A DNA stretch of 64,000 nucleotides, taken from the NCBI RefSeq assembly GCF_024256425.1, contig NC_071110.1, forward strand, positions 2,444,274 through 2,508,273. The letters run 5' to 3'. Below the pieces are notes generated by a model. It was not told the origin of the DNA, ran no database searches, and worked only from the letters and a program-made list of their open reading frames with translations. Below are positions 3,159 to 62,900 of the stretch, in pieces. This DNA comes from Clarias gariepinus. Its lineage: Eukaryota. The position numbers and the translations under genes were made by a program. Numbering within the stretch: the first letter of the stretch is position 1; the number at the start of each line of letters is the position of its first letter.

Positions 3159-4797
3159 TCCATGGTGCTACAGTGGTGTGAAAAACTATTTGCCCCCTTC
3201 CTGATTTCTTATTCTTTTGCATGTTTGTCACACAAAATGTTTCTGCTCATCAAAAACCGTTAACTATTAGTCAAAGATAACATAATTGAACACAAAATGC
3301 AGTTTTTAAATGAAGATTTACGTTATTAAGGGAGAAAAAAAACTCCAAATCTACATGGCCCTGTGTGAAAAAGTGATTGCCCCCTTGTTAAAAAATACCT
3401 TAACTGTGGTTTATTACACCTGAGTTCAATTTCTGTAGTCACCCCCAGGCCTGATTACTGCCACACCTGTTTCAATCAAGAAATCACTTAAATAGGAGCT
3501 ACCTGACACAGAGAAGTAGACCAAAAGCACCTCAAAAGCTAAACATCATGCCAAGATCCAAAGAAATTCAGGAACAAATGAGAACAAAAGTAATTAAGAT
3601 CTATCAGTCTGGTAAAGGTTATAAAGCCATTTCTAAAGCTTTGGGACTCCAGCGAACCACAGTGAGAGCCATTATCCACAAATGGCAAAAACATGGAACA
3701 GTGGTGAACCTTCCCAGGAGTGACCGGCCGACCAAAATTACCCCAAGAGCGCAGAGACAACTCATCCGAGAGGCCACAAAAGACCCCAGGACAACATCTA
3801 AAGAACTGCAGGCCTCACTTGCCTCAATTAAGGTCAGTGTTCACGACTCCACCATAAGAAAGAGACTGGGCAAAAACGGCCTGCATGGGAGATTTCCAAG
3901 GCGCAAACCACTTTTAAGCAAAAAGAACATTAAGGCTCGTCTCAATTTTGCTAAAAAACATCTCAATGATTGCCAAGACTTTTGGGAAAATACCTTGTGG
4001 ACCGACGAGACAAAAGTTGAACTTTTTGGAGGGTGCGTGTCCCGTTACATCTGGCGTAAAAGGAACACAGCATTTCAGAAAAAGAATATCATACCAACAG
4101 TAAAATATGATGGTGGTAGTGTGATGGTCTGGGGTTGTTTTGCTGCTTCAGGACCTGAAAGGCTTGCTGTGATAGATGGAACCATGAATTCTACTGTCTA
4201 CCAAAAAATCCTGAAGGAGAATGTCCGGCCATCTGTTCGTCAACTCAAGCTGAAGCGATCTTGGGTGCTGCAGCAGGACAATGACCCAAAACACACCAGC
4301 AAATCCACCTCTGAATGGCTGAAGAAAAACAAAATGAAGACTTTGGAGTGGCCTAGTCAAAGTCCTGACCTGAATCCTATTGAGATGTTGTGGCATGACC
4401 CTAAAAAGGTGGTTCATGCTAGAAAACCTTTAAATGAAGCTGAATTACAACAATTCTGCAAAGATGAGTGGGCCAAAATTCCTCCAGAGTGCTGTAAAAG
4501 ACTCGTTGCAAGTTATTGCAAACGCTTGATTGCAGTTATTGCTGCTAAGGGTTGCTGCAACCAGTTATTAGGTTCAGGGGCAATTACTTTTTCACACAGG
4601 GCCATTTAGGTTTGGAGTTTTTTTTCTCCCTAAATAATAAAAACCATCATTTAAAAACTGCATTTTGTGTTTACTTGTGTTATCTTTGACTAATAGTTAA
4701 ATGTGTTTGATGATCAGAAACATTTTGTGTGACAAACATGCACAAGAATAAGAAATCAGGAAGGGGGCAAATAGTTTTTCACACCACTGTATGGCAC
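3159..4797 (+). mobile_element. Tc1-like DNA transposon, apparently complete, with IR/DR-type long terminal inverted repeats and TA flanks
   Basis: Left end ta|cagtggtgtgaaaaactatttgccccc (3159-). Right end gggggcaaatagtttttcacaccactg|ta (to 4797). Inverted repeats of about 230 bp each (3159-3388 and about 4565-4797) contain an internal direct repeat copy (ctgtgtgaaaaagtgattgccccc at about 3361). Confidence 0.85.
3548..4609 (+). CDS. Tc1/mariner DDE transposase, 353 aa, uninterrupted ORF
   Basis: N-terminal paired-like/HTH region (IYQSGKGYKAISKALGLQRTTVRAIIHKWQKHGT). Catalytic DD(34)E signature: WTDETKVELFG ... QQDNDPKHTS ... WPSQSPDLNPIEMLW. No internal stops. Confidence 0.9.
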   Translation: MPRSKEIQEQMRTKVIKIYQSGKGYKAISKALGLQRTTVRAIIHKWQKHGTVVNLPRSDRPTKITPRAQRQLIREATKDPRTTSKELQASLASIKVSVHDSTIRKRLGKNGLHGRFPRRKPLLSKKNIKARLNFAKKHLNDCQDFWENTLWTDETKVELFGGCVSRYIWRKRNTAFQKKNIIPTVKYDGGSVMVWGCFAASGPERLAVIDGTMNSTVYQKILKENVRPSVRQLKLKRSWVLQQDNDPKHTSKSTSEWLKKNKMKTLEWPSQSPDLNPIEMLWHDPKKVVHARKPLNEAELQQFCKDEWAKIPPECCKRLVASYCKRLIAVIAAKGCCNQLLGSGAITFSHRAI

Positions 4798-10761: not shown

Positions 10762-11348
10762 GTGAGTGTGTGAGGAGTTACAGATATTTCTTGTGAAATT
10801 TAACAATTGTACAACACAAATGTACTGTACATTGAGCTCCAGACGTATTGGCACCTTTTACAAAATTACTCTATGTAAATCATAACATACAGAGTGCACT
10901 TTATTATTGATTATAATGCATTTAACCCATGGATAAGCAGCTACTAAACAGTGTATTTATAAAGTGGTGTGTGGTTAAGCTTTACAGTGCATTCAGAAAG
11001 TATTCACAGTGCATCACTTTTTCCACATTTTGTTATGTCACAGCCTTATTCTAAAATAGATTAAATTCATTTTTTTCTTAGAATTCTACACACAACACCC
11101 CATAATGACAATGTGAAAACAGTTTACTTAAGATTTTTGCAAATTGATTAGAAATTTAAAAATTGAGTATAGTATTCACAGCCTTTGCCATGACGCTCAA
11201 AATTGAGCTCAGGCGTGTCCTATTTCTCCGATTATCCTTGAGATGTTTCTGCAGCTTAATTGGAGTCCACTTGTGGTAAATTCAGTTGATTTGACATGAT
11301 TTGGAAAGACACACACCTGTCTATATAAGGACCCACAGTTGACAGTTC

Positions 11349-11783
11349 ATGTCAGAGCACAAACCAAGCATGAAGTCAAAGGAATTGTCTGTAGACCTCC
11401 GAGACAGGATTGTCTCCAGGCACAAATCTGGGGAAGGTTACAGAAAAATTTCTGCTGCTTTGAAGGTCCCAATGAGCACAGTGGCCTCCATCACCCGTAA
11501 GTGGAAGAAGTTCGAAACCACCAGGACTCTTCCTAGAGCCGGCCGGCCATCTAAACTGAGCGATCGGGGAAGAAGGGCCTTAGTCAGGGAGGTGACCAAG
11601 AACCTGATGGTCACTCTGTCAGAGCTCCAGAGGTGGACCTTCCAGAAGGACAACAATGTCTGCAGCAATCCACCAATCAGGCCTACTGTATATAGTAGAG
11701 TAGCCAGAAGGAAGCCACACCTTAGTAATAGGCACATGGCAGACCTCCTGGAGTTTGCCAAAAGGCACATGAAGGACTCTTAG
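11349..11783 (+). CDS. Truncated Tc1-like transposase N-terminus (DNA-binding domain only, 144 aa), interrupted by the DIRS insertion
   Basis: KELSVDLRDRIVSRHKSGEGYRKISAALKVPMSTVASITRKWKKFETTRTLPRAGRPSKLSDRGRRALVREVTKN... is the typical Tc1 paired-like domain. No DDE domain follows. Confidence 0.7.
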   Translation: MSEHKPSMKSKELSVDLRDRIVSRHKSGEGYRKISAALKVPMSTVASITRKWKKFETTRTLPRAGRPSKLSDRGRRALVREVTKNLMVTLSELQRWTFQKDNNVCSNPPIRPTVYSRVARRKPHLSNRHMADLLEFAKRHMKDS

Positions 11784-11802
11784 ACCACGAGAAACGAATG
11801 GT

Positions 11803-23326: not shown

Positions 23327-23382
23327 ACTCCTAATTCTGGTTCTCATTCAAGATTAAGACTTATTTATCATTGTATTTGCAG

Positions 23383-24066
23383 CATCCTCGTTACAAAGGA
23401 AAAAAAGGGGAACAAGGAAGAAAAAGAAAAAGAAAAGGAAAACAAAAAAGAAAAGAAGCTGAAGGGGGGCTGTTGTTGGAAGCAAATGTAAGCCTGAAAT
23501 CAGGTATCGATCAGACGCAGACGGAGGAGGGGAAGAAAGACCATCATCATCAGGAGGAGGAGGAAGAAATGCAGGAGGGAGAGGAGGAGCAAGATCATCA
23601 TCATAAGGATAAAGACACGGAGGATGAATCGGGGAAGGAGCAAAACCATGATCATCAGGAGGAGGAGGAAATGCAAGAGGAGGAGGAGGAGCAAGAACAT
23701 CATCAGAAGGAGGAGGAGGAAGAAATGCAGGAGGGAGAGGAGGAGCAAGATCATCATCATAAGGATAAAGACACGGAGGATGAATCGGGGAAGGAGCAAA
23801 ACCATGATCATCAGGAGGAGGAAGAAATGCATGAGGAGGAGGAGCAAAATCATCATCAGGAGGAGGGGGAAGAAAGGCAGGAGGTAGAGGAAGAGCAAGA
23901 CTCTCGTCAGGTGGAGGAAGACCATCATCCAGAAGAGGAAGACGATCATCAGGAGGGGGAAGAAATGCAAGAGGACGAGGAGGAGGACGAGCAAGATCCT
24001 CATAAGGAGGAGGAGAAACGTAAAAACAGGAAGTACAGGATCACGGCTGCTGCTTTACATGAAGGT
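23383..24066 (+). other. Purine-rich tandem repeat (about 3 units of about 180 bp) encoding an E/Q/H/D-rich low-complexity frame; candidate cassette exon of the WD40 gene or an intronic minisatellite
   Basis: The open frame of ORF 23371-24099 shows repeating ...HQEEEEEMQEGEEEQDHHHKDKDTEDESGKEQNHD... The segment is bounded by acceptor-like tttgcag| at 23382/3 and donor-like gaag|gtgtgt at 24066/7. Its length is 684 nt, a multiple of 3. Confidence 0.35.
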
Positions 24067-24148
24067 GTGTTAACTTCACACACTTTAGAGCAGCCATAAG
24101 GTTATTTTTGTTTAAAAGTTATTTTAATCATTTTTTATGTAATTTGTG

Positions 24149-41630: not shown

Positions 41631-42196
41631 TTACATAATAGATAATTCATCACTATTGTCTACATTTAATTCTGGATCACATAAATTTATAGTTGGGTAA
41701 AAATAACATATCCTGAACCCAGCGTACAGCGGCTGAGTGAATGTGGTGTGGACACTGTGGAGGAGACTCATCGTGTCAGAGACGCTGTAAAAGGCCAGAG
41801 TTCCTGCACTATGATCCACATACACTCCTATTCTGGACGGTAATGGACATTGGAGTTTTATTTCAGTGTTGTTGTGCCAGAAAGATACAGACTTAAGGTA
41901 ACACTGCAGATTCCAGGAATGACTGTTGCGTCCAAACACACCCTCGTCACCCTCTCCTTTCCTGCTGATCTCTTTATATGAGACTGATACGTTCACACCC
42001 ATACCCTTACACTCTACCTCCCAGTAACAGCGTCCACACACACTCTCTCGACACAACACCTGAGGCGAGGAGTCAAATCTCTCTGGATGCTGACAGTATT
42101 GATGTGCTTCCCTACTGCGTGTCACTGCTCTGCTCCTCTCAGACAGAATGAGCTGATCGTGTGCTGTGTTGGGATCCAAAGTCAGATAACGAAAAT
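41631..42196 (-). CDS. B30.2 (PRY/SPRY) domain exon, finTRIM-like, full-length open
   Basis: Acceptor tgtttcag| on the minus strand. Encodes DFRYLTLDPNTAHDQLILSE...HPERFDSSPQVLCRESVCGRCYWEVEC...RIGVYVDHSAGTLAFYSVSDTMSLLHSVHTTFTQPLYAGF...NLCDPE, the canonical PRY/SPRY motifs. Confidence 0.75.
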
Positions 42197-44372: not shown

Positions 44373-44694
44373 TTACACCTACACTTCAGAAAATCTTCTC
44401 TGTATTTTGGTTCTAAGGGTAAACCCTTTTGAACTACTGCAGCTGTGGAGACACAAAGACAAAACTTAGACAAATTAAATATGTTTAGAGCCCCATCAAA
44501 AATACTGACAGAAACTGTCTTATCACTATGCAGTCTTTGATTATAAAAATCAGCTAATTCAAAAATGTTAAAACATGTTAATAACTTTAAACACATAACG
44601 ATATGTGTGTTTTTTCACTTTCTGCTAGAATAAAAGTATCAAAAAGCAGGATTATAGCTAAATATAGTTAAATCTAAGTTAAAGTCATCTTCAT

Positions 44695-45195
44695 CTATAT
44701 AGAAAATAAATCTTCACTATTGTGTACATTTAATTCTGGATCACATAAATTTATAGTTGAGTAATAATAACACATACTGAACCCAGCGTATAGAGGCTGA
44801 GTGAATGTGGTGTGGACACTGTGGAGGAGACTCATCGTGTCAGAAGGACAGAGTTCCTCCACATACACTCCTATTCTGGACGGTGATGGACCTTGGAGTT
44901 TTATTTCACTGTTGTCAGGCCATAAAGATACAGATGTAGGATAACATCCAAAAATGCATCCAAACACATACTCCTCACTCTCTCCTTTCCTGCTGATCTC
45001 TTTATATGAGACTGATACGTCCACACCCATACACTTACACTCTACCTCCCAGTAACAGCGTCCACACACACTCTCTCTCGACACAACACCTGAGGCGAGG
45101 AGTCAAATCTCTCTGGATGCTGACTGTATTGTTGTGCTTCCTTACCGCGTGTCACTGCTCCGCTCCTCTCAGACAGAATGAGCTGGTCATGAGCT
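44695..45195 (-). CDS. Tandem duplicate B30.2 exon with three in-frame deletions relative to 41631-42196; likely 3' exon of the TRIM gene at 45.6-48.4 kb, or a decaying copy
   Basis: Same acceptor context and about 90% identity to copy 1. It lacks RYLTLDP, has a shorter variable loop, and has VYVEELCPSDT in place of VYVDHSAGTLAFYSVSDT. The frame is open throughout. Confidence 0.6.
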
Positions 45196-45882
45196 GTGTT
45201 GAAATCTGAAACAGAACCTGTAATAATTTTAATATGATATATAGTATATCAATATGTAAAAAGCAGGATTGTAGCTGCTCTCAAGAGCAGAGAGAGTTCA
45301 TTTCATCACTCTTTACTTTTGGATTTCTTCTATTTAACTTGACATCTATTCTTAAGCATATTTACAACATTTAATTTGTGAGATTCATTAAAATCAGTTT
45401 CTGGATTTGATGGAACTTACAAGGTTAATATTCATCTATGATTGTTAAGGTAGTCTTGTTCTTATCTAAGCTTTAAACCTGCTTCTTAATTTCTTCTTTC
45501 ATTTGATTCAAAATAAAAGTTTTTAGCACATTACCGCATTCATAAATTTTTTTGAATACATCCTCAAAGATTTCCTCAACTTGTGTTCTAAGTTTTGAGA
45601 GAGATTGCTGCACTCCATCAAATGAGAAATTTCTATTGACGAAGAAGCGGTGTGAGTCCTCACGTTCAGGGGAAACACAGAGAGACAGGAAACCCTACAG
45701 AGAGGAAACACATCATAGAGAAGGAGAAAAGTGTAGGAGAGGAACGAATGAATCTCAGACTGAATCAGACCAAAGACACACTTGTGATCTCAGACAGGAA
45801 CATTTATTGTTGCTGTAATGAGCTTTTAGGAGGAAACTTTGTGAGGAACAGCGCCCTCTGTAGATCAGACAGTGAGTGTTAC

Positions 45883-46116
45883 CTGGAGGAAGTGGATGTG
45901 ATCGTGTGTGTGTGAAAGGGGCTTCATCTCAGTGACTCTCCTCTTAAGATCAGCAATCTCCTGCTCCAGTTGCTTCAGGAGTCGTTCAGCTCGACTCAGT
46001 TCAGCTTTCTCCTGAGCTCTGATTAGCTCCGTCACCTCCGAGCGCTTTTTCTCCATGGAGCTGATCAGCTCAGTGAAGATCCTCTCATTGTCGTCTACTG
46101 CTGCCTGTGAATGCAT
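45883..46116 (-). CDS. finTRIM-like gene, coiled-coil exon (234 nt)
   Basis: Encodes ...IFTELISSMEKKRSEVTELIRAQEKAELSRAERLLKQLEQEIADLKRRVTEMKPLSHTHDHIHFLQ|gtaaca. A heptad-like coiled coil. Confidence 0.7.
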
Positions 46117-46136
46117 CTGTATAAGGGCACACACAC

Positions 46137-46171
<35 letters not shown>

Positions 46172-46323
46172 GAAAAAAATTAGAGACTCAAAATAATAAG
46201 ATGGAAACAGAGAGAGTGTTTAGGTTTAATAGGTTTTCAGAAAAAAAAGCTTTGTTGGCATTATTTTAAAGTTACAGGAAAAGCAAGAAGAGGAGGGTGT
46301 TTTTATATAAGTTGATTCTCTTA

Positions 46324-46420
46324 CCTTTATGAAGTCCATGGATCGTTTCAGGTCCTGCACACTTTCTCTTTTCTTCTTTATTCTCCGCTCAAATTCCCTT
46401 TGGTTTTTCTCCAGCTCTTT
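46324..46420 (-). CDS. finTRIM-like gene, coiled-coil exon 2 (about 96 nt)
   Basis: Acceptor ttttag| and donor cataaag|gtaaga on the minus strand. Encodes ELEKNQREFERRIKKKRESVQDLKRSMDFIK. Confidence 0.6.
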
Positions 46421-47780: not shown

Positions 47781-48380
47781 CTCTTTTTCAGTTCTTTCTA
47801 CTTCAGCTAAAACTGTATTGTGGCCTTTGTGTTCAAACATTGTACATAAATAGCAGATGAAGCTTTGGTCAGTACGACAGTAGATCTCAATCAGTTTGTC
47901 ATGCTGAGAACAGAACTTCTCTTGGAGATCTCCACAGGCTTCCACTAACTTGTGCTTCTTAAAGGCAGGAAACTCATAGTGACGTTTAAGATGATCTTCA
48001 CAATAGGAGGCCGGACACCCCAGACAGGACTTGACGGCTTTGCGTTTTCTCCCAGTGCAGGAATCACACTCCACATCTCCAGGTCCAGCGTAGCAGTGAG
48101 CAGGAGAAGCAGGCTGGAGTTCAGTCTTCATCAGTTTCTCCACCACTTCAGCCAGAATGTTGTTCCTATGTAGAACAGGCCTTGGAATAAAAGTCTCTCT
48201 ACACTGAGGACAGCTGTAGACACCCTTCACATCCTCCTGATCCCAGCAGCCATTAATACACACCTTACAGTAACTGTGACCACAGGAATTAGTCACTGGT
48301 TCTGTCAGGACACCCAGACACACTGGACAGCTGAAGTGATCCGCTGACAGCTTACCTACTAAAATATAGCCCTCTGCCAT
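47781..48380 (-). CDS. finTRIM-like gene exon 1: RING finger (C3HC4) plus B-box zinc-finger region, with start codon
   Basis: MAEGYILVGKLSADHFSCPVCLGVLTEPVTNSCGHSYCKVCINGCWDQEDVKGVYSCPQCRETF... is the typical fish finTRIM RING. ...[83 protein letters not shown] is the B-box. Donor gaaaaagag|gtgaga. Confidence 0.8.
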
Positions 48381-50223: not shown

Positions 50224-50483
50224 AGTCAAAAAATTACAGCAGGGAACTCTGAATAGTTACGGAAGGTTCAGCAGGAGACACAGGGCAGGGACTCAAAAAC
50301 CGAGTGAATAAAAGGGGAGAAAATGAACAGCTTAAATACACTGGGGGGGAAACGAGACACAGGTGATCTAAAAAACTAATGAGGAAACACAAGGAAGAAC
50401 TAAAGATAAGGGGAACACAAATGACCTCTAGAGGCCTGGGGAGAAACTACAGGAGGAACGAAAGGCTGACAGGACCCCCTCCT

Positions 50484-51194
50484 CTAGGAACGACTCCTGG
50501 CGTTCCTTTTCGCACCTCCCAATTGCCAAGTGCGGAACTCCCGGATTAAACTTGGATCCAGGATGTCCTTGGCTGGGACCCAAGAGTGCTCCTCCGGCCC
50601 GTAACCCTCCCAGTCCACCAGATACTGTAGTGAGTTCCGGATCCTCCGGGAGTCCAGTATCCGGCGGACTGTGTAGGCTGGCTGGCCATCGATGACTCTG
50701 GGAGGTGGAGGGGTTCTGCGTGGGGGGGCAAAGGGAGAAGACAAAATAGGTTTTACCAAAGAGACATGAAATGTTGGGTTAATTCTAAGGGAATAAGGAA
50801 GAAATAAACGATAAGAAACAGGGTTAACTTTCCTGGCAATGCGAAAGGGGCCAATGAACTTCTGAGACAACTTCCTCGATTCAACCCGGAGGGGCAGGTT
50901 CTTGGTGGATAACCAGACTCTTTGACCAGGTTGGAAGTTGGGCGCTGACCGGCGGTGGCGGTTTGCCTGACTTTGGTATCTTTTGGAGGATCGAAGAAGG
51001 ATTTGCCTAGCCTTCCTCCAGGTTTGTCGGCAGCGCTGAACAAAGCGTTGGGCAGATGGAACGCCCACCTGTGCTTCTTCCTCAGGAAACATGAGGGGGC
51101 ATACCCAAACTGACATTCGAAGGGGGACAGTCCAGTGGCCGAAGACTGGAGGGTGTTGTGTGCGTATTCCGCCCACAGGATGTAGGTTGCCCAA
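50484..51194 (-). CDS. Integrase C-terminus (GPY/F module) plus chromodomain
   Basis: [17 protein letters not shown]...[12 protein letters not shown] is the GPY/F module. [21 protein letters not shown] is a chromodomain. Confidence 0.7.
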
Positions 51195-52222
51195 GAAGTG
51201 GGGTTATGGGCTGCCATGCACCGCAGGGTGGTCTCCAGATCCTGATTAATCCGTTCTGTTTGGCCATTGGACTCAGGATGGAACCCAGATGAAAGGCTGG
51301 CTGTGGCCCCAATCAGCCTGCAGAAGGCACTCCAGAACCAGGATGAGAACTGAGGCCCCCGATCAGAGACCATATCTAATGGCATACCAAAAATCCAAAA
51401 GACATGATTCATAAGGAGTTCAGCTGTCTCCTTAGCAGATGGCAGCTTGGGCAGAGGAATAAATCGGGCGGCCTTAGAGAACCGGTCCACCACTACCAGG
51501 ATGACAGTGTTACCTTGGGATGGTGGGAGTCCTGTAACAAAGTCCAGAGACAGGTGTGACCATGGCCTGCCGGGAATGGGTAAGGGATGGAGTAGGCCCT
51601 GGAGTCGCTGCCGAGTGGACTTTCCCTGGTTGCACACAGTACAGGCCTCCACGTAGCCCTTTACATCCACCTTGATAGATGGCCACCAAAATCGCCGCTG
51701 CAGGAACTCGAGTGTACGAGCAGTTCCTGGGTGGCATGTCAAGGAGGACCCATGACCCCACTGCAAGACCCGGGCCCGAGCAGAATGAGGGACGTATAGG
51801 CGGCCCGCCAAACCGCCTCCTGGATCTGGCTCATGAGCTTGAGCCCCCCGCACCACCCGCTCTAGATCCCACTGAAGGGGTGCAATGATCTTTGACCTCG
51901 GGATAATCTGGGCCAGCGGTTTCTCCTTTGTCTCGGGAAAGTAAGCTCGGGACAGGGCATCCGGTTTGACATTCTTGGCGCCGGGTCTGTAAGACAGAAT
52001 AAATTGAAAACGATTAAAAAACAACGACCACCAAGCCTGCCGAGGATTGAGCCGCTTAGCTTGCTGGAGATATTCCAGGTTCTTGTGGTCCGTGAGAACT
52101 TGGAACAGATGCAGAGCCCCCTTAAGCCAATGGCGCCATTCCTCCAGAGCAAGTTTTACCGCTAGCAGTTCTCGATCCCCCACATGGTAGTTCCGCTCTG
52201 CATCTGAAAGACGATAAGACAT
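50753..52222 (-). CDS. pol fragment: RNase H plus integrase (HHCC zinc finger, DDE core); frame-shifted relative to the neighbouring pol ORFs
   Basis: RNase H: [28 protein letters not shown]...[11 protein letters not shown]. Integrase: [10 protein letters not shown]...C..C; [13 protein letters not shown]...[17 protein letters not shown]...[11 protein letters not shown]. Overlaps ORF 52162-53484 by 60 nt and ORF 50484-51194 by about 440 nt, in different frames. Confidence 0.8.
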
Positions 52223-53484
52223 GAAAGCACAGGGATTTGCAATTTACCGTCCTCACCTCTTTGTGACAGGATGGCCCCTACGCCTACCTCCGATGCATCT
52301 ACTTCCACCACAAAAGGTTTTTCTGGGTCAGGGATAGAAAGGATGGGAGCGGAAGTAAAACGGCGTTTGAGATCCTGAAAGGCCCCTGATGCTTCTGAGC
52401 CCCAGCAAATCTTGGTTCCTCCTCTCTTAGTCAGCGCTGTCAAGGGAGTCACCACAGAGCTAAAATTCCTAATAAACTTCCTATAAAAGTTTGAAAAGCC
52501 AATGAAGCGTTGGACCTCCTTGATGGAAGTGGGAGTGGGCCAATTCAGGACAGCCTCGACTTTCTTAGGGTCCATCTCCACATGGCCAGGTGTGACAATC
52601 AACCCAAGAAACTGAGCCTGAGTGACATGAAACTCACATTTCTCAGGCTTCACGTAAAGATGGTTATCAAGAAGTCTCTGGAGGACCCTGCTAACATGCT
52701 GCTTGTGCTCCTCTAGTGATCTTGAGAAAATGAGAATATCATCCAGATACACGAAGACGAATAAATTTAGCATATCCCGAAGAACGTCATTTATTAGAGC
52801 TTGGAATACAGCAGGGGCATTTGTGAGTCCAAAGGGCATTACCAGATACTCATAGTGGCCTGTGGGGGTGTTGAAGGCTGTCTTCCATTCGTCACCCTGC
52901 CGGATCCGAACAAGATGGTAGGCATTGCGAAGGTCTAGTTTTGTAAACATGGAAGCCTCTTGAAGTAACTCAAAAGCCGTGGCCATGAGCGGAAGGGGAT
53001 ATCGATTCCGAACAGTGATCTTGTTAAGGGCCCGATAATCGATACACGGCCTGAGATCCCCGTCTTTCTTTCCCACAAAGAAGAAGCCTGCACCGGCTGG
53101 AGAAGTAGAGGGACGGATGATGCCGGCTGCCAAGGACTCCTTGTAGTAAATGTCCATTGCTTTACGCTCAGGAGGAGACAAGGAGAAGATCCGACCTCTT
53201 GGAGGGGAGGAACCAGGGAGCAGATCAATGGCACAGTCATAGGAGCGGTGAGGTGGTAGGGAGGTGGCTCGGGATTTGCTAAACACCGTCTTGAACTGAT
53301 AATAGCACCTGGGAACTCGAGAGAGGTCAGTAGGCTCCTGAAGCTCTGGACTAGGTGAGGGTGGATTCAGAAGTACACAGGTAGCCTGGCAGGTGAGGCC
53401 CCAGCTAAGAATAGTGCTCGATGTGGGGATTGTGTGTGTGCAGCCAGGAGTAACCAAGGATGACAGGGGACTCAGGACAGTCAA
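52162..53484 (-). CDS. pol fragment: aspartic protease plus reverse transcriptase
   Basis: ...AIDLLPG... (protease-like), RT motifs [27 protein letters not shown] and [13 protein letters not shown]. Confidence 0.8.
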
Positions 53485-53773
53485 TAAGATAGAAGGTCTC
53501 CTTCTACTGGTGTTGAAGAATGGTGAGTTGCAGGGGCTGAGTGGCCTCTGTTACTCTGCCTGGTTCCAGCGGTCTGCCGTCCAATGCTGTCACGGCCTGG
53601 GGATGAGACAGGGGTTATGTTGGGATCTTGAGTTGTTTAGCCATTGACCGGTCCAGGAAATTGCCCGCAGCACCAGAATCGATCATGGCTTGGACCGGAA
53701 GCTGGTGACCCTCCCAGGACAGTGGCCGGAATGGCTAGGACGGCATTAGTAGGAGGATATCTAATCTTCCCCA

Positions 53774-54223
53774 TCACAGCCCTCCCACAGCTGGGCGGGG
53801 ACCCCCATTTCCCGAAAGCTCAGGGCAAGAGGAGCGAAAGTGGCCAGAAGATCCACAGTAAAGACAAAGCCGCTCCCTCATGCGGCGTTCCCTCTCCTTA
53901 GGAGTGAGCCTGGAGCGACCCAACTGCATGTTCTCCGGGAAATCACAATGCTGTTCAGGGACAAGGGGCGCTCTAGGGGGCACACCAACTGGCGAAACAG
54001 ATCTGCTCATAGGTACTTGAGGTGGAGGTGCCTTACGACGAGCCAACCTCCGCTCTCTTAGACGATTGTCCAGACGGATGGCAAGGGTAATGAGGGTTAC
54101 GGCAGGAGACACAGGGCAGGGACTCAAAAACCGAGTGAATAAGAGGGGAGAAAATGAACAGCTTAAATACACTAGGGGGAAAACGAGACACAGGTGATCT
54201 AAAAAACTAATGAGGAAACACAA
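53774..54223 (-). CDS. gag remnant with a CCHC zinc knuckle; the N-terminus of the ORF runs into the LTR, so the gag 5' region is deleted
   Basis: [14 protein letters not shown]. The ORF starts inside the LTR sequence. Confidence 0.6.
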
Positions 54224-54302
54224 GGAAGAACTAAAGATAAGGGGAACACAAATGACCTCTAGAGGCCTGGGGAGAAACTACAGGAGGAACGAAAGGCTGA
54301 CA

Positions 54303-56768: not shown

Positions 56769-57301
56769 TCATTGTGGATCACATAACCTCACAGTGGAAG
56801 CATTCTTCCATATATAAAACCCAGCATATAGAGGCTGAGTGAATGTGGTGTGGACACTGTGGAGGAGCTTCATGGTGTCAGAGACGCTGTAGAAGGACAG
56901 AGTTCCTGCACTGTGATCCACATACACTCCTATTCTGGAGAATGCTGGATCTTTGACCACAGTCTTAAGGTCATCGTGCCAGAAAGAGACAGAGGAAGAA
57001 GAACACTGCAGACTCCAGGACTGATTGTTGCGTCCAAATCCACATTTAGTATCCTGTCCTTTTCTGCTAATCTCTTTATACGAGACTGATATGTACACAA
57101 ATATCTCACTGCTCCACTCCACCTCCCAGTAATGACGCCCACACACACTCTCCTTACACAACACTTGTTCCCACTCATCAAATCTCTCTGGATGATCAGA
57201 GTAGTCTTGTTTTGTCTCACTGCATGTCACTGCTCTGTTCTCCTCAGACAGAATGAGTTGATGATGTGCTGTGTTGGGATCCAGAGTCAGATAACAGAAA
57301 T
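56769..57301 (-). CDS. B30.2 (PRY/SPRY) domain exon of a second, truncated finTRIM-like paralogue
   Basis: Acceptor ctgttttag|. Encodes YLTLDPNTAHHQLILSEENRAVTCSETKQDYSDHPERFDEWEQVLCKESVCGRHYWEVEW...RIGVYVDHSAGTLSFYSVSDTMKLLHSVHTTFTQPLYAGF...LCDPQ. The frame is open. Confidence 0.7.
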
Positions 57302-58037
57302 CTAAAACAGTAAAATATCAGGGTTAGATGTTAAAACAAGGATTTGTAATAAGTGTGTGATAATATTTTAAACATTACAAGACATCAGTCAACATCATAC
57401 AAAATATATGAACACGTTTACAGACACCCACACCGCAGAAACTCTTCTCTGCTGTCCAGTTCTGAGGGCAAAATCATCTGAACTTCTGCAGCTGTAGAGA
57501 CATACAATGAAATTGTTGTATACACCATTGTATACCGTTTTCTCCAAAACTGTAAAAACAGTTTTTGGATTAAATTCCTATTTGTATAGTAAATTTACAA
57601 TGTTTATGCTTCCATGTTCATGCAGTCTGGTTTCTGCTTCCTTCTGGCTCTCATCACTGTGATGCAGAACAAATGTTTGTTTGTTTTCATTGTGGATGAA
57701 TTTTGTTCAATTTCCTACTCACAGATTTTCTTAGCTTGTTTTTCCAGATCTAGTAAAAATCTCGCCACTCCATCAAATGTGAGATGTTGACTGACAGTGA
57801 AGCTGGGTGAGTCCTCACATCCAGGAGAAACACAGAGAGACGGGAAACTCTACAGAGAGGAAACACATCATAGAGAAGGAGAAAAGTGTAGGAGAGGAAC
57901 GAATGAATCTCAGACTGAATCAGACCAAAGACACACTTGTGATCTCACACAGGAACATTTATTGTTGCTGTAATGAGCTTTTAGGAGGAAACTTTGTGAG
58001 GAACAGCGCCCTCTGTAGATCAGACAGTGAGTGTTAC

Positions 58038-58271
58038 CTGGAGGAAGTGGACGTCATTGTGTGTGTGTGAAAGATGCTCCAGCTCAGAGACTCTCCTCTT
58101 AAGATCAGCAATCTCCTGCTCCAGTTGCTTCAGGAGTCGTTCAGCTCGACTCAGTTCAGCTTTCTCCTGATCTCTGATCAGCTCCGTCACCTCCGAGCGC
58201 TTTTTCTCCATAGAGCTGATCAGCTCAGTAAAGATCGTCTCACTCTCATCTACTGCTCTCTGTGAATGACT
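58038..58271 (-). CDS. Coiled-coil exon of the second TRIM paralogue (234 nt, collinear with 45883-46116)
   Basis: ...MEKKRSEVTELIRDQEKAELSRAERLLKQLEQEIADLKRRVSELEHLSHTHNDVHFLQ|gtaaca. Confidence 0.65.
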
Positions 58272-58502
58272 CTGTCAGGACGTGTACAGAAACAAACACA
58301 CACTTCTTATATCTCACACTGAAGTCACTCTTATCCAGGAGAGGATACATCGATTTTTTTCTTTTTAAAAGGCTGGTTACTTATTTTTGTTACAGTCACA
58401 GAGAAAGAAGCAGCAAAAGAAGATTAGAAAGAGAAGAACAATCCATTTATAGATCAACATTGTGTTTGTATGTTTAGGAGAATCTCTGTGCTCTCGCCTC
58501 AC

Positions 58503-58598
58503 CTTAATTGTGTCCACAATCTGTTTCAGCTCCTGTACCTTCTTCTGCTTCTCCTGGATCCTCAGCTGTGATTTTATCTGCTCCTCCTTTAGCTCATT
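58503..58598 (-). CDS. Coiled-coil exon 2 of the second TRIM paralogue (96 nt)
   Basis: Acceptor cttag|. Encodes NELKEEQIKSQLRIQEKQKKVQELKQIVDTIK|gtgagg. Confidence 0.55.
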
Positions 58599-59781
58599 CT
58601 AAGACCAAATTAAAATACACGTCTTTATTTCTCCATCCAGGTCTCAGTGTGTTTGCTCAGGTTCTATAGAATTATATTTTTTAAATAGTAACACAACAGT
58701 GAAAAATACAAATAGGTGACAAGTAGAAACATTGCCTTTACAAGGTAAAAGTTAGAAACTAATAAAATTGCCAGCATTCATTTATTTGTCTTCATACTTC
58801 GCACTTTTGTATGTTGAAAACCGGTTTTCCGGTCTAGAATGGCAGCTGGCAGAAATAAAGTTATTAGTTCTATGTTAAAAAAGTTACTTCACATTAATCA
58901 GGAATAATTAAAAATTAAAAGACACCATAAATGTACCCACATCCATTTGTTTTGGTAGATGTTTTGATGTTAGACAGGCCATAAATTTCAGCGCTACTCT
59001 TCTTCCTAGGTACTTGTTATTTTGTCTAAACCCTGTTTCATCCTAAAGAAAAAGTTTCCACATGACCAGATTTTGAGCAAACATTTCCAGCTAAATATTT
59101 TGCACCTGCAAATCCTCTTAATCAGATGAAGCATTATGCAGCCATCTGCACAATCCTGTTTGTGTGTTTGATTTCCTCACACATCACTGAGTAAACAGGT
59201 ATACCTGTCTCTGATGTTCTGCACCACTGGTCAGGTAGTGACACGATTGAAATGTGCCAGTTTTTCTAATTACACAATTGGCGGTTACATTTAGAAGAAA
59301 CCCTTTCAACAGATGAGTTATTGTTTTTACATATAATCTCTATGTCAATCTCTATATCAAAAAGTGAACTCTTGGCTTCTATCAGTGCATACCAATGAGA
59401 TAACATCATGCACAACACGCCCCCGCTAGACAATGTCTTTCAAAACTCTTAGCCCTTCCCACATGGGCCATTCTCACACTTCAGCACTATTTATGTCCTC
59501 CAGACCTCCATGCAAATTGAAAAACATTCACCTGTCTAATAGAATGTCCCTTTATTCATTCATAAAGAGCACCATAATGCCACACTTAAAAACATTTCCA
59601 TGTATTCACTTTAGCTGTAAAATTCTTTAAGAAATGTGTGTTTGTTGACCATTTAATGCAGCACTGACTGGTCTGACCTGTTAAACACTTCTTTACCATC
59701 AACGCATAGAATTAAAAATAGAATAGAAACAAAGATTAGTCTCAACTGACATGTTAAAGAATAATGGCATCCAGTTCTCAC

Positions 59782-59958
59782 CTGTTCATCTATAATTTCT
59801 GCTGTAGAAACCATATTGTGGTCTTTGTGTTCATCCACCATGCACAAGTGACGGATGAAGCTGTGGTCAGATCTTAATCTCGAAAGAGGTTTGTCTGGTG
59901 AGAGCAGACCTTCTCGTGGAGCTCTGCACAGGCTGATAGTCTTAGGATGAACAGACAA
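59782..59958 (-). pseudogene. B-box remnant of the second TRIM paralogue. No RING coding sequence lies upstream. It is frameshifted and has lost zinc ligands relative to locus A.
   Basis: One frame reads ACAELHEKVCSHQTNLFRD*, with a stop after an indel of about 4 nt. Another reads ...RSDHSFIRHLCMVDEHKDHNMVSTAEIIDEQ|gtgaga. Compare locus A: [53 protein letters not shown]. Confidence 0.55.
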
Positions 59959-62900
59959 GAATGAACAGCTTCGGCTTACTTCCAGTGAAGCAATCTCAGA
60001 AGTTTACTGGCTGTTGCTGTGTTTTTTATAGTTCCATAGAGAGTGGGTGTGGCTTTAAAAAGAGGATTAGTGCAGGCGTATGACTAACCCAAACCTATAC
60101 ATACTGTACAAGGTTTAAGTGTAAATGAACTTCCTTGTCATTTAAAGAATCAAAACAATCAAATCCTGCTTTTTTCATGGTCTACAGTATTGTGATTGTC
60201 TTTGCATCATCATAGAGGAGTATATAATGGTATAAATAAAATGTAATGACAGCACATTGTTGGAATAATCTCAATTAACAAAAAAAGGCTAATTCATGTT
60301 ACAAAAGCTTTTAAAATATATTCAACTCAAATGTATTATCAAAAACATCTTCAAACAAAAAACGACACCATTGTCAAATGGCAAGTAAATGGTTCCTTTT
60401 TTAAAGACCCAGAACAACAATCACTGAAACACTGAGCCTGGGTTAAGGTAAAAGAAAGGGGAGGTGGGGTTCAGGGATAGGTCAGGCAAATGGTTTTACC
60501 ATCACCAACATGGAGAGCAAGAATCAAACAAAGAAACAAGAAGAAAACCTGAAAAAGGCTTTGAATCGTCTAACCAGAAAAATGCTAGAAGCAAATCGGA
60601 TTGAATCGTCCAACCAGAAAAATGCTAGAAGCAAATCGGATTGAAATTTCACATTGTTTGTAATGTGTTGTAATTGTAAAAAGGTGTGTGCAGTTAGAAA
60701 TCCAGTGAACTTTGGGTGAAGATTTGATTAATTCATGCGACATGGCCTGACAAGTCAAATCAAAGATCATGCACTGTGGCATGCAGTCCAATGAATGTTG
60801 GGTCGATGATCTCGAGGGGACAGACAGTAGACATACCTTGGCAGCGTCATCAGACAGGATGGAGAACTCACAGGATTGGAGGAAGGACAGTAAGGAAACC
60901 ACTTATTAAGACTTAGCAGAAAAAAAAAGGCTTCAGTTTGCTAGGAAGCATAAAGATTGGACTTTGGTCTACAAAGTATGTTAAAGGAGCGTCATTATGT
61001 GTACTTTCTGTAGCTAGGAGGAAATAAATGTACTACTGGAAGTACTCAATAAACAAATGTTAAAGATGCATAAAAGTAAATATCACGAGGTACTAATGAA
61101 ACTGAGGCCAAGAATAGTTATATTGTCGTAAACAAGAAGTCTGAGATGATGAATGCTCTTTTCATGGCTTTCTGATTAAACCGAACCAGATTTTTTTATC
61201 TTGGCCTTATTTATTATTATTTTTTTTTTCAGGTTAGCAGCAGAAACAGTCTTTTTTTAGTGTGATCTCAAAGTCCTCCATGGTTACAGTCATCTGCAGG
61301 TCGCCTTTAGACAGCACTAGAATCTCTCCTGGGCTCAAACCTTGAATCGTCTGATGCATTGCCATCATGGATGCATCTTTGTGTACATAAACACATAATG
61401 GTAAGGAAATTAAACTTGTTAAATGCACCTAAATTACCTCTACATTCACTGTCATTTCTTATATTCTCCTATTTTGGAGGAACAGTACAATCAGATTGTA
61501 CAGTACAATCTATAGCAAAACTTCTATACTGCTACACACACAGCCTGTTCCAAGTGCAGTCTCCCTCTGCCAGGCAAAATTGTTGGGTGAGGAGGGCTGG
61601 CGTGCAGAAGACATTTCAGTTCATTCTAAAGGTTTCCGTTGGCGTTGAGGTCAGTGCAGAAATTGAGTTCTTCCATTCCAACTCTAACATTGTCTACATG
61701 CAGCTGACTGTGTATACAGGGGCACAGTCATGAAATATCTTGAAACAGGAAAGGGCTTCTTATTCCAGTAAAGGGAAATTGTAATGATACAGCAATTTCC
61801 CTTTGGGATTAATAAAGTTATTTGAATCTTGAATCTTCAATCATACGGAGAGAGTCTATATAATTAAGTGCTTTCATCTTTATGGCAACAGTTTAGAGAA
61901 GAATTAAATTAACTTCACATACTTTTGACCATATGGTGTACTGTAGGTGTACAATTACTCAATAGTTGATCAACATATCATTGACACAGTTGTAGGTACC
62001 ATTCATCAAATAGATGATGGCCATTTATTAATGTGCATTAACAGGAACAGGAAGACCACAACACCCGATGTACATGACCTGCCAAACGATCAAAAATCAT
62101 TCATCAGGCTTTTTTATGTAATATCATGAAATACCCAGATAGATCTAGAACTTCTATTTCGTAACTCCACACCAGATTTTTTTCTGGTAAACTCCACCAT
62201 AAACTCTGTCATTGTCAGAGTACTTGTGTCGCTTGTGTGCCTCACGTTCCATGTTTAATCCCAGTGATCTTTTGTTCATAACATAACTGCCTGTTATTCT
62301 AGGTTTTCTTTTCCCATTGCTTATTCTGCCCTGACCATGTATGACCCTGTCTGCTATGTGGATCGTGAGTTTTGAATTGTGTTAATTTGTGTTTCTCTGA
62401 GATCTGCCTATTAATTATTTCATTAATTACAATGCTGCATTGTTGTCTTTTCACACTTTAGGTCACCATGCTGCAAAGTGGATGTTTTTGGTGCTTGCGG
62501 TCCATTGCAGCATTGGATTTGCAAGATGTTGAACCAATGGGAATAAAGCATACATTCATTCCGACATGTGATTGACTACTGCTTGGACATATAACACTAC
62601 AGTACAGTACATCCTCTTTCTTTTGAAGATAATACAATATAAAAGGATATACTGAATACATTTTGACTAAAGAAAAAGCATTAAGGGAAGAATCACATAC
62701 TGTATACAGTAGTGTTTAAAATAATAGCAGTCCAACATCAGTAAACAGATCAATAATTGTTTTTGGGAAAAATTATATTTCTTCATGGTAAATATTTTAC
62801 TTGTAGGTGTAGTGGAGTAATAGAAAACCAACAGACCCAACAGTCATGACTTGCATGCACCTGCTTCTGTGTCATTAAATCATTAATTGAAAAAATAAAA

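What the first reader, a model, noticed from the sequence alone, without database searches (positions are those of the whole stretch)
56769..59958. Second TRIM paralogue: 5'-truncated and frameshifted, yet nearly identical to locus A across an exon-intron block (gene conversion or very recent duplication)
About 12 kb downstream lies a second copy on the same strand, with a B-box remnant, coiled-coil exons and a B30.2 exon. It lacks RING-coding sequence upstream. Its B-box carries an indel of about 4 nt that creates a stop, and zinc-ligand Cys residues are replaced. Nevertheless the block 57800-58270 is almost base-for-base identical to 45650-46116, including about 240 bp of intron. Mirrored six-frame ORFs at 45652-45915 and 57807-58070 on the + strand are an artefact of this identity. 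The two B30.2 exons, by contrast, are clearly diverged. This mosaic (homogenised middle, diverged ends) is the pattern expected from gene conversion within a multigene family. It could supply sequence variation to the functional gene.
Basis: seen in the sequence. Interest (0 to 1): 0.5.

Follow-up and report, generated by a model that had tools for sequence, protein, structure and literature searches.

The report
Decayed finTRIM copy; family-wide conserved intron
The second TRIM copy is a real but ordinary decayed paralogue in a catfish antiviral gene cluster. Its near-identity to the neighbouring gene comes from a 188-base intron that is almost unchanged in this gene subfamily across several catfish families, not from a recent copy-and-paste between the two loci.

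Summary
Both TRIM loci lie on the minus strand and belong to the teleost finTRIM (TRIM25-like) family; the closest relatives are siluriform (catfish).

**Locus B** (59943-56769) is a non-processed, decayed copy.
- No RING or B-box 1 is found up to the window end.
- B-box 2 is frameshifted by a 4-nt deletion.
- Exon 4 carries a stop, a 1-nt insertion and a lost donor.
- Exons 2, 3, 5 and 6 are still open.

**The "nearly identical" block** is 92.7% identical over 510 ungapped bases. Only intron 3 (188 nt, not about 240) is near-identical, at 187/188. Exon 3 differs at 20/234 sites and exon 4 at about 27%.

**The same intron elsewhere.** It is 94-99% identical in finTRIM genes of Bagridae, Ictaluridae, Siluridae and Pangasiidae (one Tachysurus copy 93%). 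That exceeds any exon, while introns 2 and 4 barely align. A and B share no exclusive variants in exon 3 or intron 3, and a run test is not significant. Conversion between A and B, or a recent duplication, is therefore not supported.

**Likely cause.** The intron starts with VTLTV-stop, the C-terminus of many annotated short catfish TRIMs. This suggests a constrained retained intron.

**Locus A.** Its true B30.2 exon is at 42196-41631.

The parts
59782..59943 (-). Locus B: remnant of the B-box 2 part of exon 1. It has a 4-nt and a 3-nt deletion, a stop in the original frame and lost Cys ligands. The GT donor at 59781-59780 is kept.
   Evidence: tblastn and alignment; no Pfam hit for ORF 59653-59958; no RING or B-box 1 upstream to 64000.
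58503..58598 (-). Locus B exon 2 (96 nt, coiled coil). Open frame with AG/GT sites; 88-92% identical to other catfish copies.
58038..58271 (-). Locus B exon 3 (234 nt, TRIM coiled coil). Open frame, with 10 private substitutions.
   Evidence: Pfam TRIM_CC
57850..58037 (-). Locus B intron 3 (188 nt, GT..AG). It matches locus A at 187/188 and has no private substitutions. It begins GTA ACA CTC ACT GTC TGA, which reads VTLTV-stop.
57690..57849 (-). Locus B exon 4. The first ~85 nt are family-typical and the rest is strongly diverged. In-frame TAG at 57717-57715, a 1-nt insertion, and the donor site is lost.
57432..57491 (-). Locus B exon 5 (60 nt), with open frame and AG/GT sites.
56769..57301 (-). 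Locus B exon 6. PRY/SPRY (B30.2) frame is open through the stop at 56771-56769.
   Evidence: Pfam PRY and SPRY
47781..48380 (-). Locus A exon 1: RING, B-box 1 and B-box 2, intact (200 codons).
   Evidence: Pfam; 78% amino-acid identity to Hemibagrus/Tachysurus TRIM25-like proteins.
46325..46420 (-). Locus A exon 2 (96 nt). Open frame but only 59-63% identical to every other copy; synonymous sites are saturated.
45883..46116 (-). Locus A exon 3 (234 nt), family-typical (94% to Hemibagrus). A (GT)n microsatellite abuts its acceptor at about 46125-46170.
45695..45882 (-). Locus A intron 3 (188 nt). It equals the subfamily consensus (0 private substitutions). In-frame stop after 5 codons; AATAAA at +75.
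45535..45694 (-). Locus A exon 4 (160 nt). Open frame but 23 private substitutions in 150 nt, with pN about equal to pS (about 0.2).
44707..45206 (-). Decayed duplicate of a B30.2 exon (pseudo-exon A') inside intron 4 of locus A. It has a 2-nt insertion and several deletions.
44383..44442 (-). Locus A exon 5 (60 nt), with AG/GT sites.
41631..42196 (-). Locus A exon 6: intact PRY/SPRY exon. It completes a 571-aa RING/B-box/coiled-coil/B30.2 ORF.
50262..54302 (-). Ty3/Gypsy-type LTR retrotransposon between loci A and B. LTRs at 50262-50471 and 54092-54302 are 97% identical.
   Evidence: LTR pair; RVT_1, RNase H, integrase.

Best explanation
Locus B is an old, non-processed (intron-containing) decayed copy of a catfish finTRIM gene, lying in a tandem cluster next to a structurally complete gene, locus A.

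Its striking similarity to A is confined to exon 3 and above all intron 3. It does not record an exchange between A and B. In the 'RSQAAVDD' finTRIM subfamily this 188-nt intron is the most conserved segment of the whole gene, in at least four catfish families. Both window copies simply carry the family consensus.

Shown: the cross-family conservation, the lack of an A-B-specific signal, and the lesions in B.

Inferred: the intron is held by purifying selection because it is a regulated retained intron. Read-through past its weak GTAACA donor adds VTLTV and a stop, giving the short RING/B-box/coiled-coil isoform without B30.2 that is annotated in many catfish. The intron would then serve as that isoform's stop and 3' end.

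In decayed copies such as B, the element may persist for one of two reasons. Exons 2-3 may still be used from an exon 1 outside the window, or the intron may be refreshed by conversion from other family members.

The confidence of 0.6 applies to the core claim: a decayed paralogue plus family-wide constraint, not A-B conversion. The retained-intron mechanism on its own I put at about 0.35.
For: **Lesions in B:**

**A versus B by segment**:

| Segment | Identity |
|---|---|
| exon 2 | 59-68% |
| intron 2 | no blastn hit |
| exon 3 | 91.5% |
| intron 3 | 99.5% |
| exon 4 | 71-73% |
| exon 5 | 73% |
| B30.2 | 78-81% |

**Intron 3 identity to A in other species** (families checked):

| Species | Identity |
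|---|---|
| Hemibagrus | 98.4 / 98.9% |
| Silurus | 98.4 / 98.4 / 97.9% |
| Ameiurus | 98.2% (plus a 19-nt deletion) |
| Pangasianodon gigas | 97.3% (two copies) |
| Ictalurus furcatus | 94.1% |
| Tachysurus | 93.1% |

**Rates compared**
- In cross-family pairs intron 3 (91-97%) is more conserved than exons 2, 3 and 5 in nearly all pairs and at least as conserved as exon 4 except in pairs with the Tachysurus copy. Introns 2 and 4 are 50-87% identical with many gaps.
- Exon 1 synonymous p-distance between the same copies is 0.11-0.28. Intron 3 distance is 0.01-0.04.
- Private substitutions: winA 0/188 in the intron versus 23/150 in exon 4; winB 0/188 versus 20/150. Fisher p = 3e-9 and 4e-8.
- The effect holds at non-CpG sites.

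**No A-B signal:** no exclusive shared variants in exon 3 or intron 3, and the run test is not significant after correction.

**Short isoform**
- The in-frame stop after 5 codons is invariant in 12/12 copies.
- The first 25 nt of the intron are conserved even in a characiform.
- Annotated proteins end ...HFLQVTLTV or VTHTV in five of the catfish species sampled (both Pangasianodon species, Neoarius, Ictalurus furcatus, Silurus), and ...VTVTV or VINTV in a characiform and a gymnotiform.
- Polyadenylated finTRIM isoforms lacking B30.2 are documented in trout and zebrafish (PMC2657112).
Against: - The AATAAA at +75 is changed to AAGAAA in the three bagrid copies and deleted in Ictalurus furcatus. 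Cleavage at that site is therefore not the constrained feature.
- Deletions of 19, 7 and 2 nt are tolerated.
- One full-length Tachysurus copy has 11 private changes in the intron.
- B has no exon 1 in the window, so selection acting through B's own mRNA is hard to justify.
- Locus A is itself a patchwork. Exons 2 and 4 are far more diverged than exon 3 plus intron 3, as expected if a patch had been converted from some family member.
- No transcript data were available here.
- Only 12 long-intron copies from 7 species were sampled. The rest of the family in the window's own genome is unseen.
Confidence: 0.6

Rival explanations
1. Patchy gene conversion from other, unsampled finTRIM paralogues repeatedly overwrites exon 3 and intron 3 in A and B, without direct A-B exchange. 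This keeps the intron at the family consensus even in decayed copies. Selection acts only on the functional donors.
For: - Both copies are mosaics with sharp switches. In A the change falls at the intron 3/exon 4 junction on one side and at a (GT)n tract at the exon 3 acceptor on the other. In B it falls in the middle of exon 4 (about 3/85 versus 22/75 differences by eye).
- A's exon 2 has saturated synonymous sites while the adjacent exon 3 is 94% identical to Hemibagrus.
- B lacks exon 1 yet keeps a perfect intron.
- Domain-specific conversion is documented in another large fish immune gene family, NLR-B30.2 (PMC4852459).
Against: - Exon 3 of A and B carries 6 and 10 private substitutions right next to an intron with none. 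A recent tract would have to be limited to the intron.
- Conversion alone cannot explain the 94-99% identity between catfish families.
- No donors are visible in the window.
Confidence: 0.3
2. One reading: direct gene conversion between locus A and locus B, or a very recent duplication, homogenised the middle block.
For: - A and B are the closest pair for intron 3, with 1 difference.
- They join weakly in a neighbour-joining tree of exon 3.
- They share 3 exclusive states in exon 4.
Against: - B differs from the Silurus introns at 2 sites and A from Hemibagrus_b at 2, so 1 difference is not distinctive.
- At the one A/B difference, B carries the Silurus state.
- There are 20 differences in exon 3, more than A versus Hemibagrus.
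- There are no exclusive shared states in exon 3 or intron 3.
- The run test gives p = 0.0235 before correction for 36 pairs.
- The flanks are 59-81% identical or unalignable.
Confidence: 0.07
3. Intron 3 carries an element that works independently of the host gene's coding capacity, such as an enhancer or other DNA-level signal, or an unclassified small RNA. It would therefore be conserved in intact and decayed copies alike.
For: - Conservation is equal in intact genes, RING-less copies (Hemibagrus_b), exon-4-deleted copies (Silurus_b and c) and B.
- The intron holds four GTCTGA motifs and several TTCCTC motifs (read directly from the sequence).
Against: - No Rfam match at E up to 10 inside the intron.
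- Fold energy is no better than shuffles on either strand (z = 0.28 and -0.91).
- One of the GTCTGA motifs is the most variable site, with C, G or T at position 90.
- No transcription-factor or expression data could be consulted.
Confidence: 0.15
4. Assembly artefact: the block is a collapsed or duplicated assembly segment.
For: None beyond the high local identity.
Against: - There are 37 mismatches in 510 bp, and the flanks differ.
- Each copy sits in its own full set of exons, with different introns and a 4-kb LTR element between the loci.
- The same architecture is seen in eight independent assemblies.
Confidence: 0.01

Closest known systems
finTRIM (ftr) multigene family of teleosts (van der Aa et al. 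2009, PMC2657112)
   Same: - RING, two B-boxes, coiled coil and B30.2.
- Six-exon plan with 96-nt and 234-nt coiled-coil exons, then about 154-160 nt and 60 nt exons, then a B30.2 exon of about 545-566 nt.
- Tandem clusters with pseudogenes.
- Highly similar N-terminal parts with variable B30.2.
- Polyadenylated short isoforms lacking B30.2.
   Different: - This is a catfish cluster. Best protein identity is only 78%, so these copies are not in the databases searched.
- Locus B lacks the RING and is decayed.
- That paper has only three mentions of introns, and none of the passages read describes conserved intron sequence between paralogues or species.
Domain-specific gene conversion in large fish immune gene families (NLR-B30.2 of zebrafish, Howe et al. 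2016, PMC4852459)
   Same: A mosaic similarity profile along paralogues, with some segments homogenised and others diverged or positively selected.
   Different: The homogeneous segment here is equally conserved between catfish families. Tests for an A-B tract fail. Conversion may contribute but is not shown.
Introns more similar than flanking exons in MHC genes (intron homogenisation by recombination while exons are kept diverse); recalled from memory, not checked here
   Same: An intron that is more similar between paralogues than the neighbouring coding exons. Exon 3 here has dN about equal to dS.
   Different: The MHC pattern is within species or between close species. Here identity of 94-99% spans four families, and lineage-specific changes are absent from the intron, which points to constraint rather than drift.
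Conserved retained or 'detained' introns and TRIM isoforms lacking the C-terminal domain. The background of PMC2657112 notes that most TRIM genes make partial transcripts without the C-terminal part; the general properties of retained introns are from memory.
   Same: A short intron with a weak donor (GTAACA), a strong polypyrimidine tract, an immediate in-frame stop, and high conservation. Annotated proteins end in the read-through peptide.
   Different: No transcript evidence was examined here. The candidate poly(A) hexamer is not conserved in 4 of 12 copies.

Membership tests
finTRIM / class IV TRIM gene (locus B as a gene) | N-terminal RING finger | tested here: not met
   No RING or B-box 1 similarity between 59,945 and 64,000. 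An exon 1 beyond the window end cannot be excluded.
finTRIM / class IV TRIM gene (locus B as a gene) | Intact B-box 2 zinc finger | tested here: not met
   A 4-nt deletion gives a stop, and Cys ligands are lost. No Pfam hit.
finTRIM / class IV TRIM gene (locus B as a gene) | TRIM coiled coil and PRY/SPRY (B30.2) domains | tested here: met
   TRIM_CC E = 4.8e-21; PRY E = 1.2e-9; SPRY E = 2.9e-13. However, exon 4 between them has a stop, a frameshift and a lost donor.
finTRIM family (descent of both loci) | Six-exon plan with exons of 96, 234, about 154 and 60 nt (PMC2657112), and best hits to fish finTRIM/TRIM25-like proteins | tested here: met
   Exons of 96, 234, 160 and 60 nt in both loci. 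Hits are named finTRIM or 'fish virus induced TRIM'. Locus A has a 571-aa ORF with RING, B-box, TRIM_CC, PRY and SPRY.
Non-processed (duplicated) pseudogene | Retains introns and the exon order of the parent family, and carries disabling lesions | tested here: met
   Introns 1-5 are present. Lesions are in exon 1 and exon 4.
Gene-conversion tract between A and B | The two paralogues are closer to each other in the tract than either is to other family members or orthologues | tested here: not met
   Exon 3: A-B 20 differences versus A-Hemibagrus 15. Intron 3: A-B 1 versus B-Silurus 2 and A-Hemibagrus_b 2.
Gene-conversion tract between A and B | Significant run of concordant polymorphic sites (Sawyer/GENECONV-type test), and shared derived variants | tested here: not met
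   p = 0.0235 uncorrected among 36 pairs, and cross-species pairs score as well. There are 0 exclusive shared states in exon 3 and intron 3. Only 12 copies were sampled, and none of the other copies comes from the same genome.
Retained intron ending a short isoform | In-frame stop shortly after the donor, conserved across copies | tested here: met
   Stop at codon 6 in 12/12 copies. Annotated proteins end ...HFLQVTLTV.
Retained intron ending a short isoform | Conserved poly(A) signal inside the intron | tested here: inconclusive
   AATAAA at +75 in 8/12 copies, AAGAAA in 3, deleted in 1.
Retained intron ending a short isoform | Transcripts that retain the intron or end within it | not testable with these tools
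   No RNA-seq or EST data for this species. The only evidence is indirect, from annotated protein ends.
Intronic structured RNA (snoRNA, miRNA) | Match to a known RNA family, or a thermodynamically unusual fold | tested here: not met
   No Rfam match in the intron. Fold z-scores are 0.28 and -0.91.

The most novel reading that the evidence does not exclude
The 188-nt intron 3 of one finTRIM subfamily is an ultraconserved non-coding element inside an otherwise fast-evolving, duplication-prone antiviral gene family. It is kept nearly invariant (0.01-0.04 substitutions per site, against 0.11-0.28 at synonymous sites) across at least four catfish families, in intact and decayed copies alike. It would act as a switch that sets the ratio of short (RING/B-box/coiled-coil only) to full-length (B30.2-bearing) protein, or carry another function independent of the host copy.
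Probability: 0.4. Interest if true: 0.55.

Novelty: new member of a known kind. Interest (0 to 1): 0.3.

Why it matters
As submitted, the finding is ordinary. Decayed, RING-less finTRIM copies are common in catfish clusters, and several are even annotated as short 'TRIM16/29-like' genes.

The check matters for two reasons.
- It shows that a mosaic of one near-identical block between diverged flanks, read from a single genome, can mimic gene conversion when the block is simply the slowest-evolving part of the whole family. A comparison across species is needed before conversion is invoked.
- It exposes an intron that is more conserved than any exon of the gene across catfish families. If this reflects a regulated choice between B30.2-less and B30.2-bearing isoforms, it offers a concrete handle on how these antiviral TRIMs are deployed.

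It also corrects the gene model of locus A: the real B30.2 exon is 2.5 kb further on, and a decayed duplicate exon lies in intron 4.

Tried and rejected
- **Rfam.** Scans of the whole window (gathering thresholds) and of 45500-46200 (E up to 10) found nothing in the intron. The only hits were to the (GT)n tract.
- **RNA folding.** Intron 3 folded on both strands is no better than shuffles.
- **Coding reading of the intron.** The 87-aa antisense ORFs are rejected as coding, because indels of 19, 7 and 2 nt occur in other copies.
- **Intronic polyadenylation at AATAAA (+75).** This was my first mechanistic idea. It is weakened because the hexamer is altered in 4/12 copies.
- **Protein search with locus A exon 2 plus exon 4.** No candidates found. 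The search with exons 2-5 found no relative above 69% identity at full coverage. The origin of A's odd exons 2 and 4 therefore stays open.
- **Look-up of an Ictalurus punctatus protein.** Not on record.
- **Literature.** Searches for a conserved finTRIM intron returned no title or abstract on it, and neither of the two papers I opened describes one.
- **CpG hypermutability.** Considered as the reason exons vary more than the intron. The contrast persists at non-CpG sites.
- **A caution on method.** Global alignment of introns 1 and 2 gives 60-70% 'identity', which is close to what unrelated sequence gives under that scoring. blastn finds no match there.
- **Species of origin.** It could not be identified beyond Siluriformes.
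Full report
**What is in the window**

The window is vertebrate DNA (40% G+C) rich in transposons. The TRIM sequences lie on the minus strand.

Exon 1 of locus A (48380-47781) encodes a RING and two B-boxes. Its best database relatives are catfish 'TRIM25-like' and finTRIM proteins at up to 78% identity: Hemibagrus, Tachysurus, Pangasianodon, Ameiurus, Neoarius. The source is therefore a siluriform whose copies are not in the protein collection.

The exon plan matches that published for zebrafish finTRIM genes: exon 1 of 555-594 bp, then 96, 234, 154 and 60 bp, then a B30.2 exon of about 545 bp (PMC2657112).

**Locus B**

Read on the minus strand, B consists of:
- A remnant of the B-box 2 part of exon 1 (59943-59782). 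It has a 4-nt and a 3-nt deletion, a stop in the original frame and lost Cys ligands, but an intact GT donor.
- Exon 2 (58598-58503) and exon 3 (58271-58038), both open.
- Intron 3 (58037-57850).
- Exon 4 (57849-57690), with an in-frame TAG, a 1-nt insertion and no donor.
- Exon 5 (57491-57432), open.
- An open PRY/SPRY exon (57301-56769).

No RING or B-box 1 sequence is detectable between 59,945 and the window end. B keeps its introns, so it is a duplicated, non-processed copy with disabling lesions.

One caveat applies. Introns 1 of 4.5-5.7 kb occur in other catfish copies, and only 4 kb lie upstream of B. An intact exon 1 outside the window cannot be excluded.

**Locus A is mis-delimited in the finding**

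The B30.2-like sequence at 45206-44707 has a 2-nt insertion and several deletions and gives no Pfam hit. It lies between exon 4 (45694-45535) and a good exon 5 (44442-44383).

An intact PRY/SPRY exon follows at 42196-41631. Joining exons 1-5 to it gives GT-AG at every intron and a 571-aa ORF with RING, B-box, TRIM coiled coil, PRY and SPRY.

The decayed copy is about 86% (blastn, gaps counted) to 92% (aligned columns only) identical to the real exon 6. It is best read as a duplicated pseudo-exon inside intron 4. Alternatively, exons 5-6 could belong to a third, 5'-truncated copy.

**The 'identical block'**

blastn gives 45611-46120 versus 57766-58275 at 92.7% over 510 ungapped bases, with 37 mismatches. 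By segment:

| Segment | A versus B |
|---|---|
| exon 2 | 59-68% |
| introns 1 and 2 | no blastn match |
| exon 3 | 91.5% (20/234 differences) |
| intron 3 | 99.5% (187/188) |
| exon 4 | 71-73% |
| exon 5 | 73% |
| B30.2 | 78-81% |

The mosaic is real. But the near-identity is the intron alone, and the intron is 188 nt.

**Is it an A-B event?**

I fetched finTRIM loci from eight catfish assemblies and two outgroups. The copies fall into two subfamilies by the start of exon 3 (RSQAAVDD versus LSAQTAVED). A and B belong to the first.

All twelve sampled copies of that subfamily carry the same intron 3. Identity to A:

| Species | Family | Identity to A |
|---|---|---|
| Hemibagrus | Bagridae | 98.4 / 98.9% |
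| Silurus (three copies) | Siluridae | 98.4 / 98.4 / 97.9% |
| Ameiurus | Ictaluridae | 98.2% plus a 19-nt deletion |
| Pangasianodon gigas (two copies) | Pangasiidae | 97.3% |
| Ictalurus furcatus | Ictaluridae | 94.1% |
| Tachysurus | Bagridae | 93.1% |

(taxonomy.)

Four results argue against an A-B-specific event.
- B differs from two of the three Silurus introns at 2 sites (3 in the third) and from A at 1. At that one site B has the Silurus state.
- In exon 3, A is nearer to Hemibagrus (15 differences) than to B (20).
- A and B share no state that is absent from the other ten copies in exon 3 or intron 3.
- A Sawyer-type run test gives p = 0.0235 for A-B before correcting for 36 pairs. 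Its longest run is in exon 3, and cross-species pairs (A-Ameiurus, B-Hemibagrus) score better. Those cannot be conversion, so the runs reflect uneven constraint.

Recent duplication is excluded by the flanks. An assembly artefact is excluded by the 37 mismatches and the distinct contexts.

**An intron more conserved than the exons**

In cross-family pairs the identities are as follows:

| Segment | Cross-family identity |
|---|---|
| intron 3 | 91-97%, gaps only in pairs with the Ameiurus copy (19-nt deletion) |
| exon 2 | 88-94% |
| exon 3 | 86-93% |
| exon 4 | 91-94% |
| exon 5 | 85-92% |
| introns 2 and 4 | 50-87%, many gaps |

Exon 1 synonymous p-distances between the same copies are 0.11-0.28. 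Exon 3 dS is 0.06-0.23 with dN about equal to dS. Intron 3 distances are 0.01-0.04, apart from the Tachysurus copy.

Lineage-private substitutions are the sharpest measure:

| Copy | Exon 3 | Intron 3 | Exon 4 |
|---|---|---|---|
| winA | 6/234 | 0/188 | 23/150 |
| winB | 10/234 | 0/188 | 20/150 |

Fisher p for intron versus exon 4 is 3e-9 (A) and 4e-8 (B). The contrast survives removal of CpG-context columns. The Tachysurus copy, with 11 private changes in the intron, shows what a less constrained copy looks like.

Conversion within a genome cannot by itself keep a sequence the same in four families. Purifying selection on functional copies is therefore required.

**What the intron may do**

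This part is inferred.
- The intron starts CAG|GTAACA, a weak donor. It reads GTA ACA CTC ACT GTC TGA, i.e. VTLTV then stop, in all twelve copies.
- Its first 25 nt are conserved even in the characiform Prochilodus.
- Many annotated proteins end exactly ...HFLQVTLTV or VTHTV (Pangasianodon, Neoarius, Ictalurus furcatus, Silurus). A characiform and a gymnotiform end ...VTVTV and VINTV.
- Short polyadenylated finTRIM isoforms without B30.2 are documented in trout and zebrafish.

My best reading is a regulated retained intron that terminates a RING/B-box/coiled-coil-only isoform.

Several points weigh against a simple version of this idea. The AATAAA at +75 is AAGAAA in the three bagrid copies and deleted in Ictalurus furcatus. 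Deletions of 19, 7 and 2 nt are tolerated. There is no Rfam match and no unusual fold.

**What remains open**

B appears to have no exon 1, yet its intron is perfect while its exon 3, the second half of exon 4 and its B-box remnant have drifted. Three explanations are possible: B's exons 2-3 are still used from an unseen exon 1; the intron is refreshed by conversion from other family members; or the element works independently of the host copy.

Locus A is also a patchwork. Its exon 2 is only 59-63% identical to every other copy, with saturated synonymous sites but a preserved coiled-coil frame. Its exon 4 has pN about equal to pS at about 0.2. Exon 1 is family-typical (88% to Hemibagrus). Exon 3 plus intron 3 are also family-typical, and a (GT)n tract sits at the upstream edge of that block.

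This pattern is what patchy conversion or recombination among paralogues would produce. Such a process is documented in another fish immune family (PMC4852459). However, no donor is visible in 64 kb, and no database protein shares A's exon 2 or 4.

**Verdict**

The pseudogene reading is right. The reading of conversion or recent duplication between A and B is not supported.

The thing itself is an ordinary decayed member of a known family. The noteworthy by-product is the family-wide, cross-family conservation of intron 3, which I did not find described in the two finTRIM-related papers I read or in the search listings.

Noticed in passing
window 44707-45206 (-), with 44383-44442 and 41631-42196: A decayed duplicate of a B30.2 exon lies inside intron 4 of locus A. 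The real exon 5 and an intact B30.2 exon follow downstream and complete a 571-aa ORF.
   Followed up: yes
window 46325-46420 (-): Exon 2 of locus A is only 59-63% identical to exon 2 of every other catfish copy. It is more diverged than a gymnotiform copy is from the catfish copies. Synonymous sites are saturated, yet the 96-nt coiled-coil frame is intact. No database protein matches it.
   Followed up: partly
window 46125-46170: A (GT)n microsatellite directly abuts the acceptor of locus A exon 3. This is exactly where similarity to the rest of the family begins. Weak Rfam miRNA-like hits here are due to the repeat.
   Followed up: partly
window 50262-54302 (-): A Ty3/Gypsy-type LTR retrotransposon lies between loci A and B. 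Its 210-bp LTRs are 97% identical. The reverse transcriptase, RNase H and integrase ORFs are split over frames. It accounts for the G+C-rich stretch at 50-54 kb.
   Followed up: partly
window 10972-17368: A G+C-rich element is bounded by inverted repeats (10972-11318 versus 17368-16998 at 82%; 11841-12011 versus 16900-16734 at 95%). It has long minus-strand ORFs (12202-16514) that get no Pfam hit at E up to 1e-5. The C-terminal motif of the 917-aa ORF looks to me, from memory, like a tyrosine-recombinase retroelement (DIRS/Ngaro type).
   Followed up: partly
window 3169-4791: A Tc1/Sleeping-Beauty-like DNA transposon has 215-bp terminal inverted repeats (92% identical) and an apparently intact 353-aa transposase ORF (3548-4609).
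   Followed up: partly
L001 19106-22320; L006 15739-17938 and 19592-21779; L001 12209-12367: Other catfish clusters also hold RING-less or exon-4-damaged copies that keep a near-perfect intron 3. Hemibagrus copy b lacks the first 49 codons of exon 1. Silurus copies b and c have a 43-nt deletion in exon 4 and a truncated B30.2. Hemibagrus copy a has a stop in exon 4.
   Followed up: partly
window 23371-24099 and 60561-60640: There is a Glu/His-rich repetitive ORF over tandem repeats (23519-23982). A separate two-copy 40-nt tandem repeat lies at 60561-60640, upstream of locus B.
   Followed up: no
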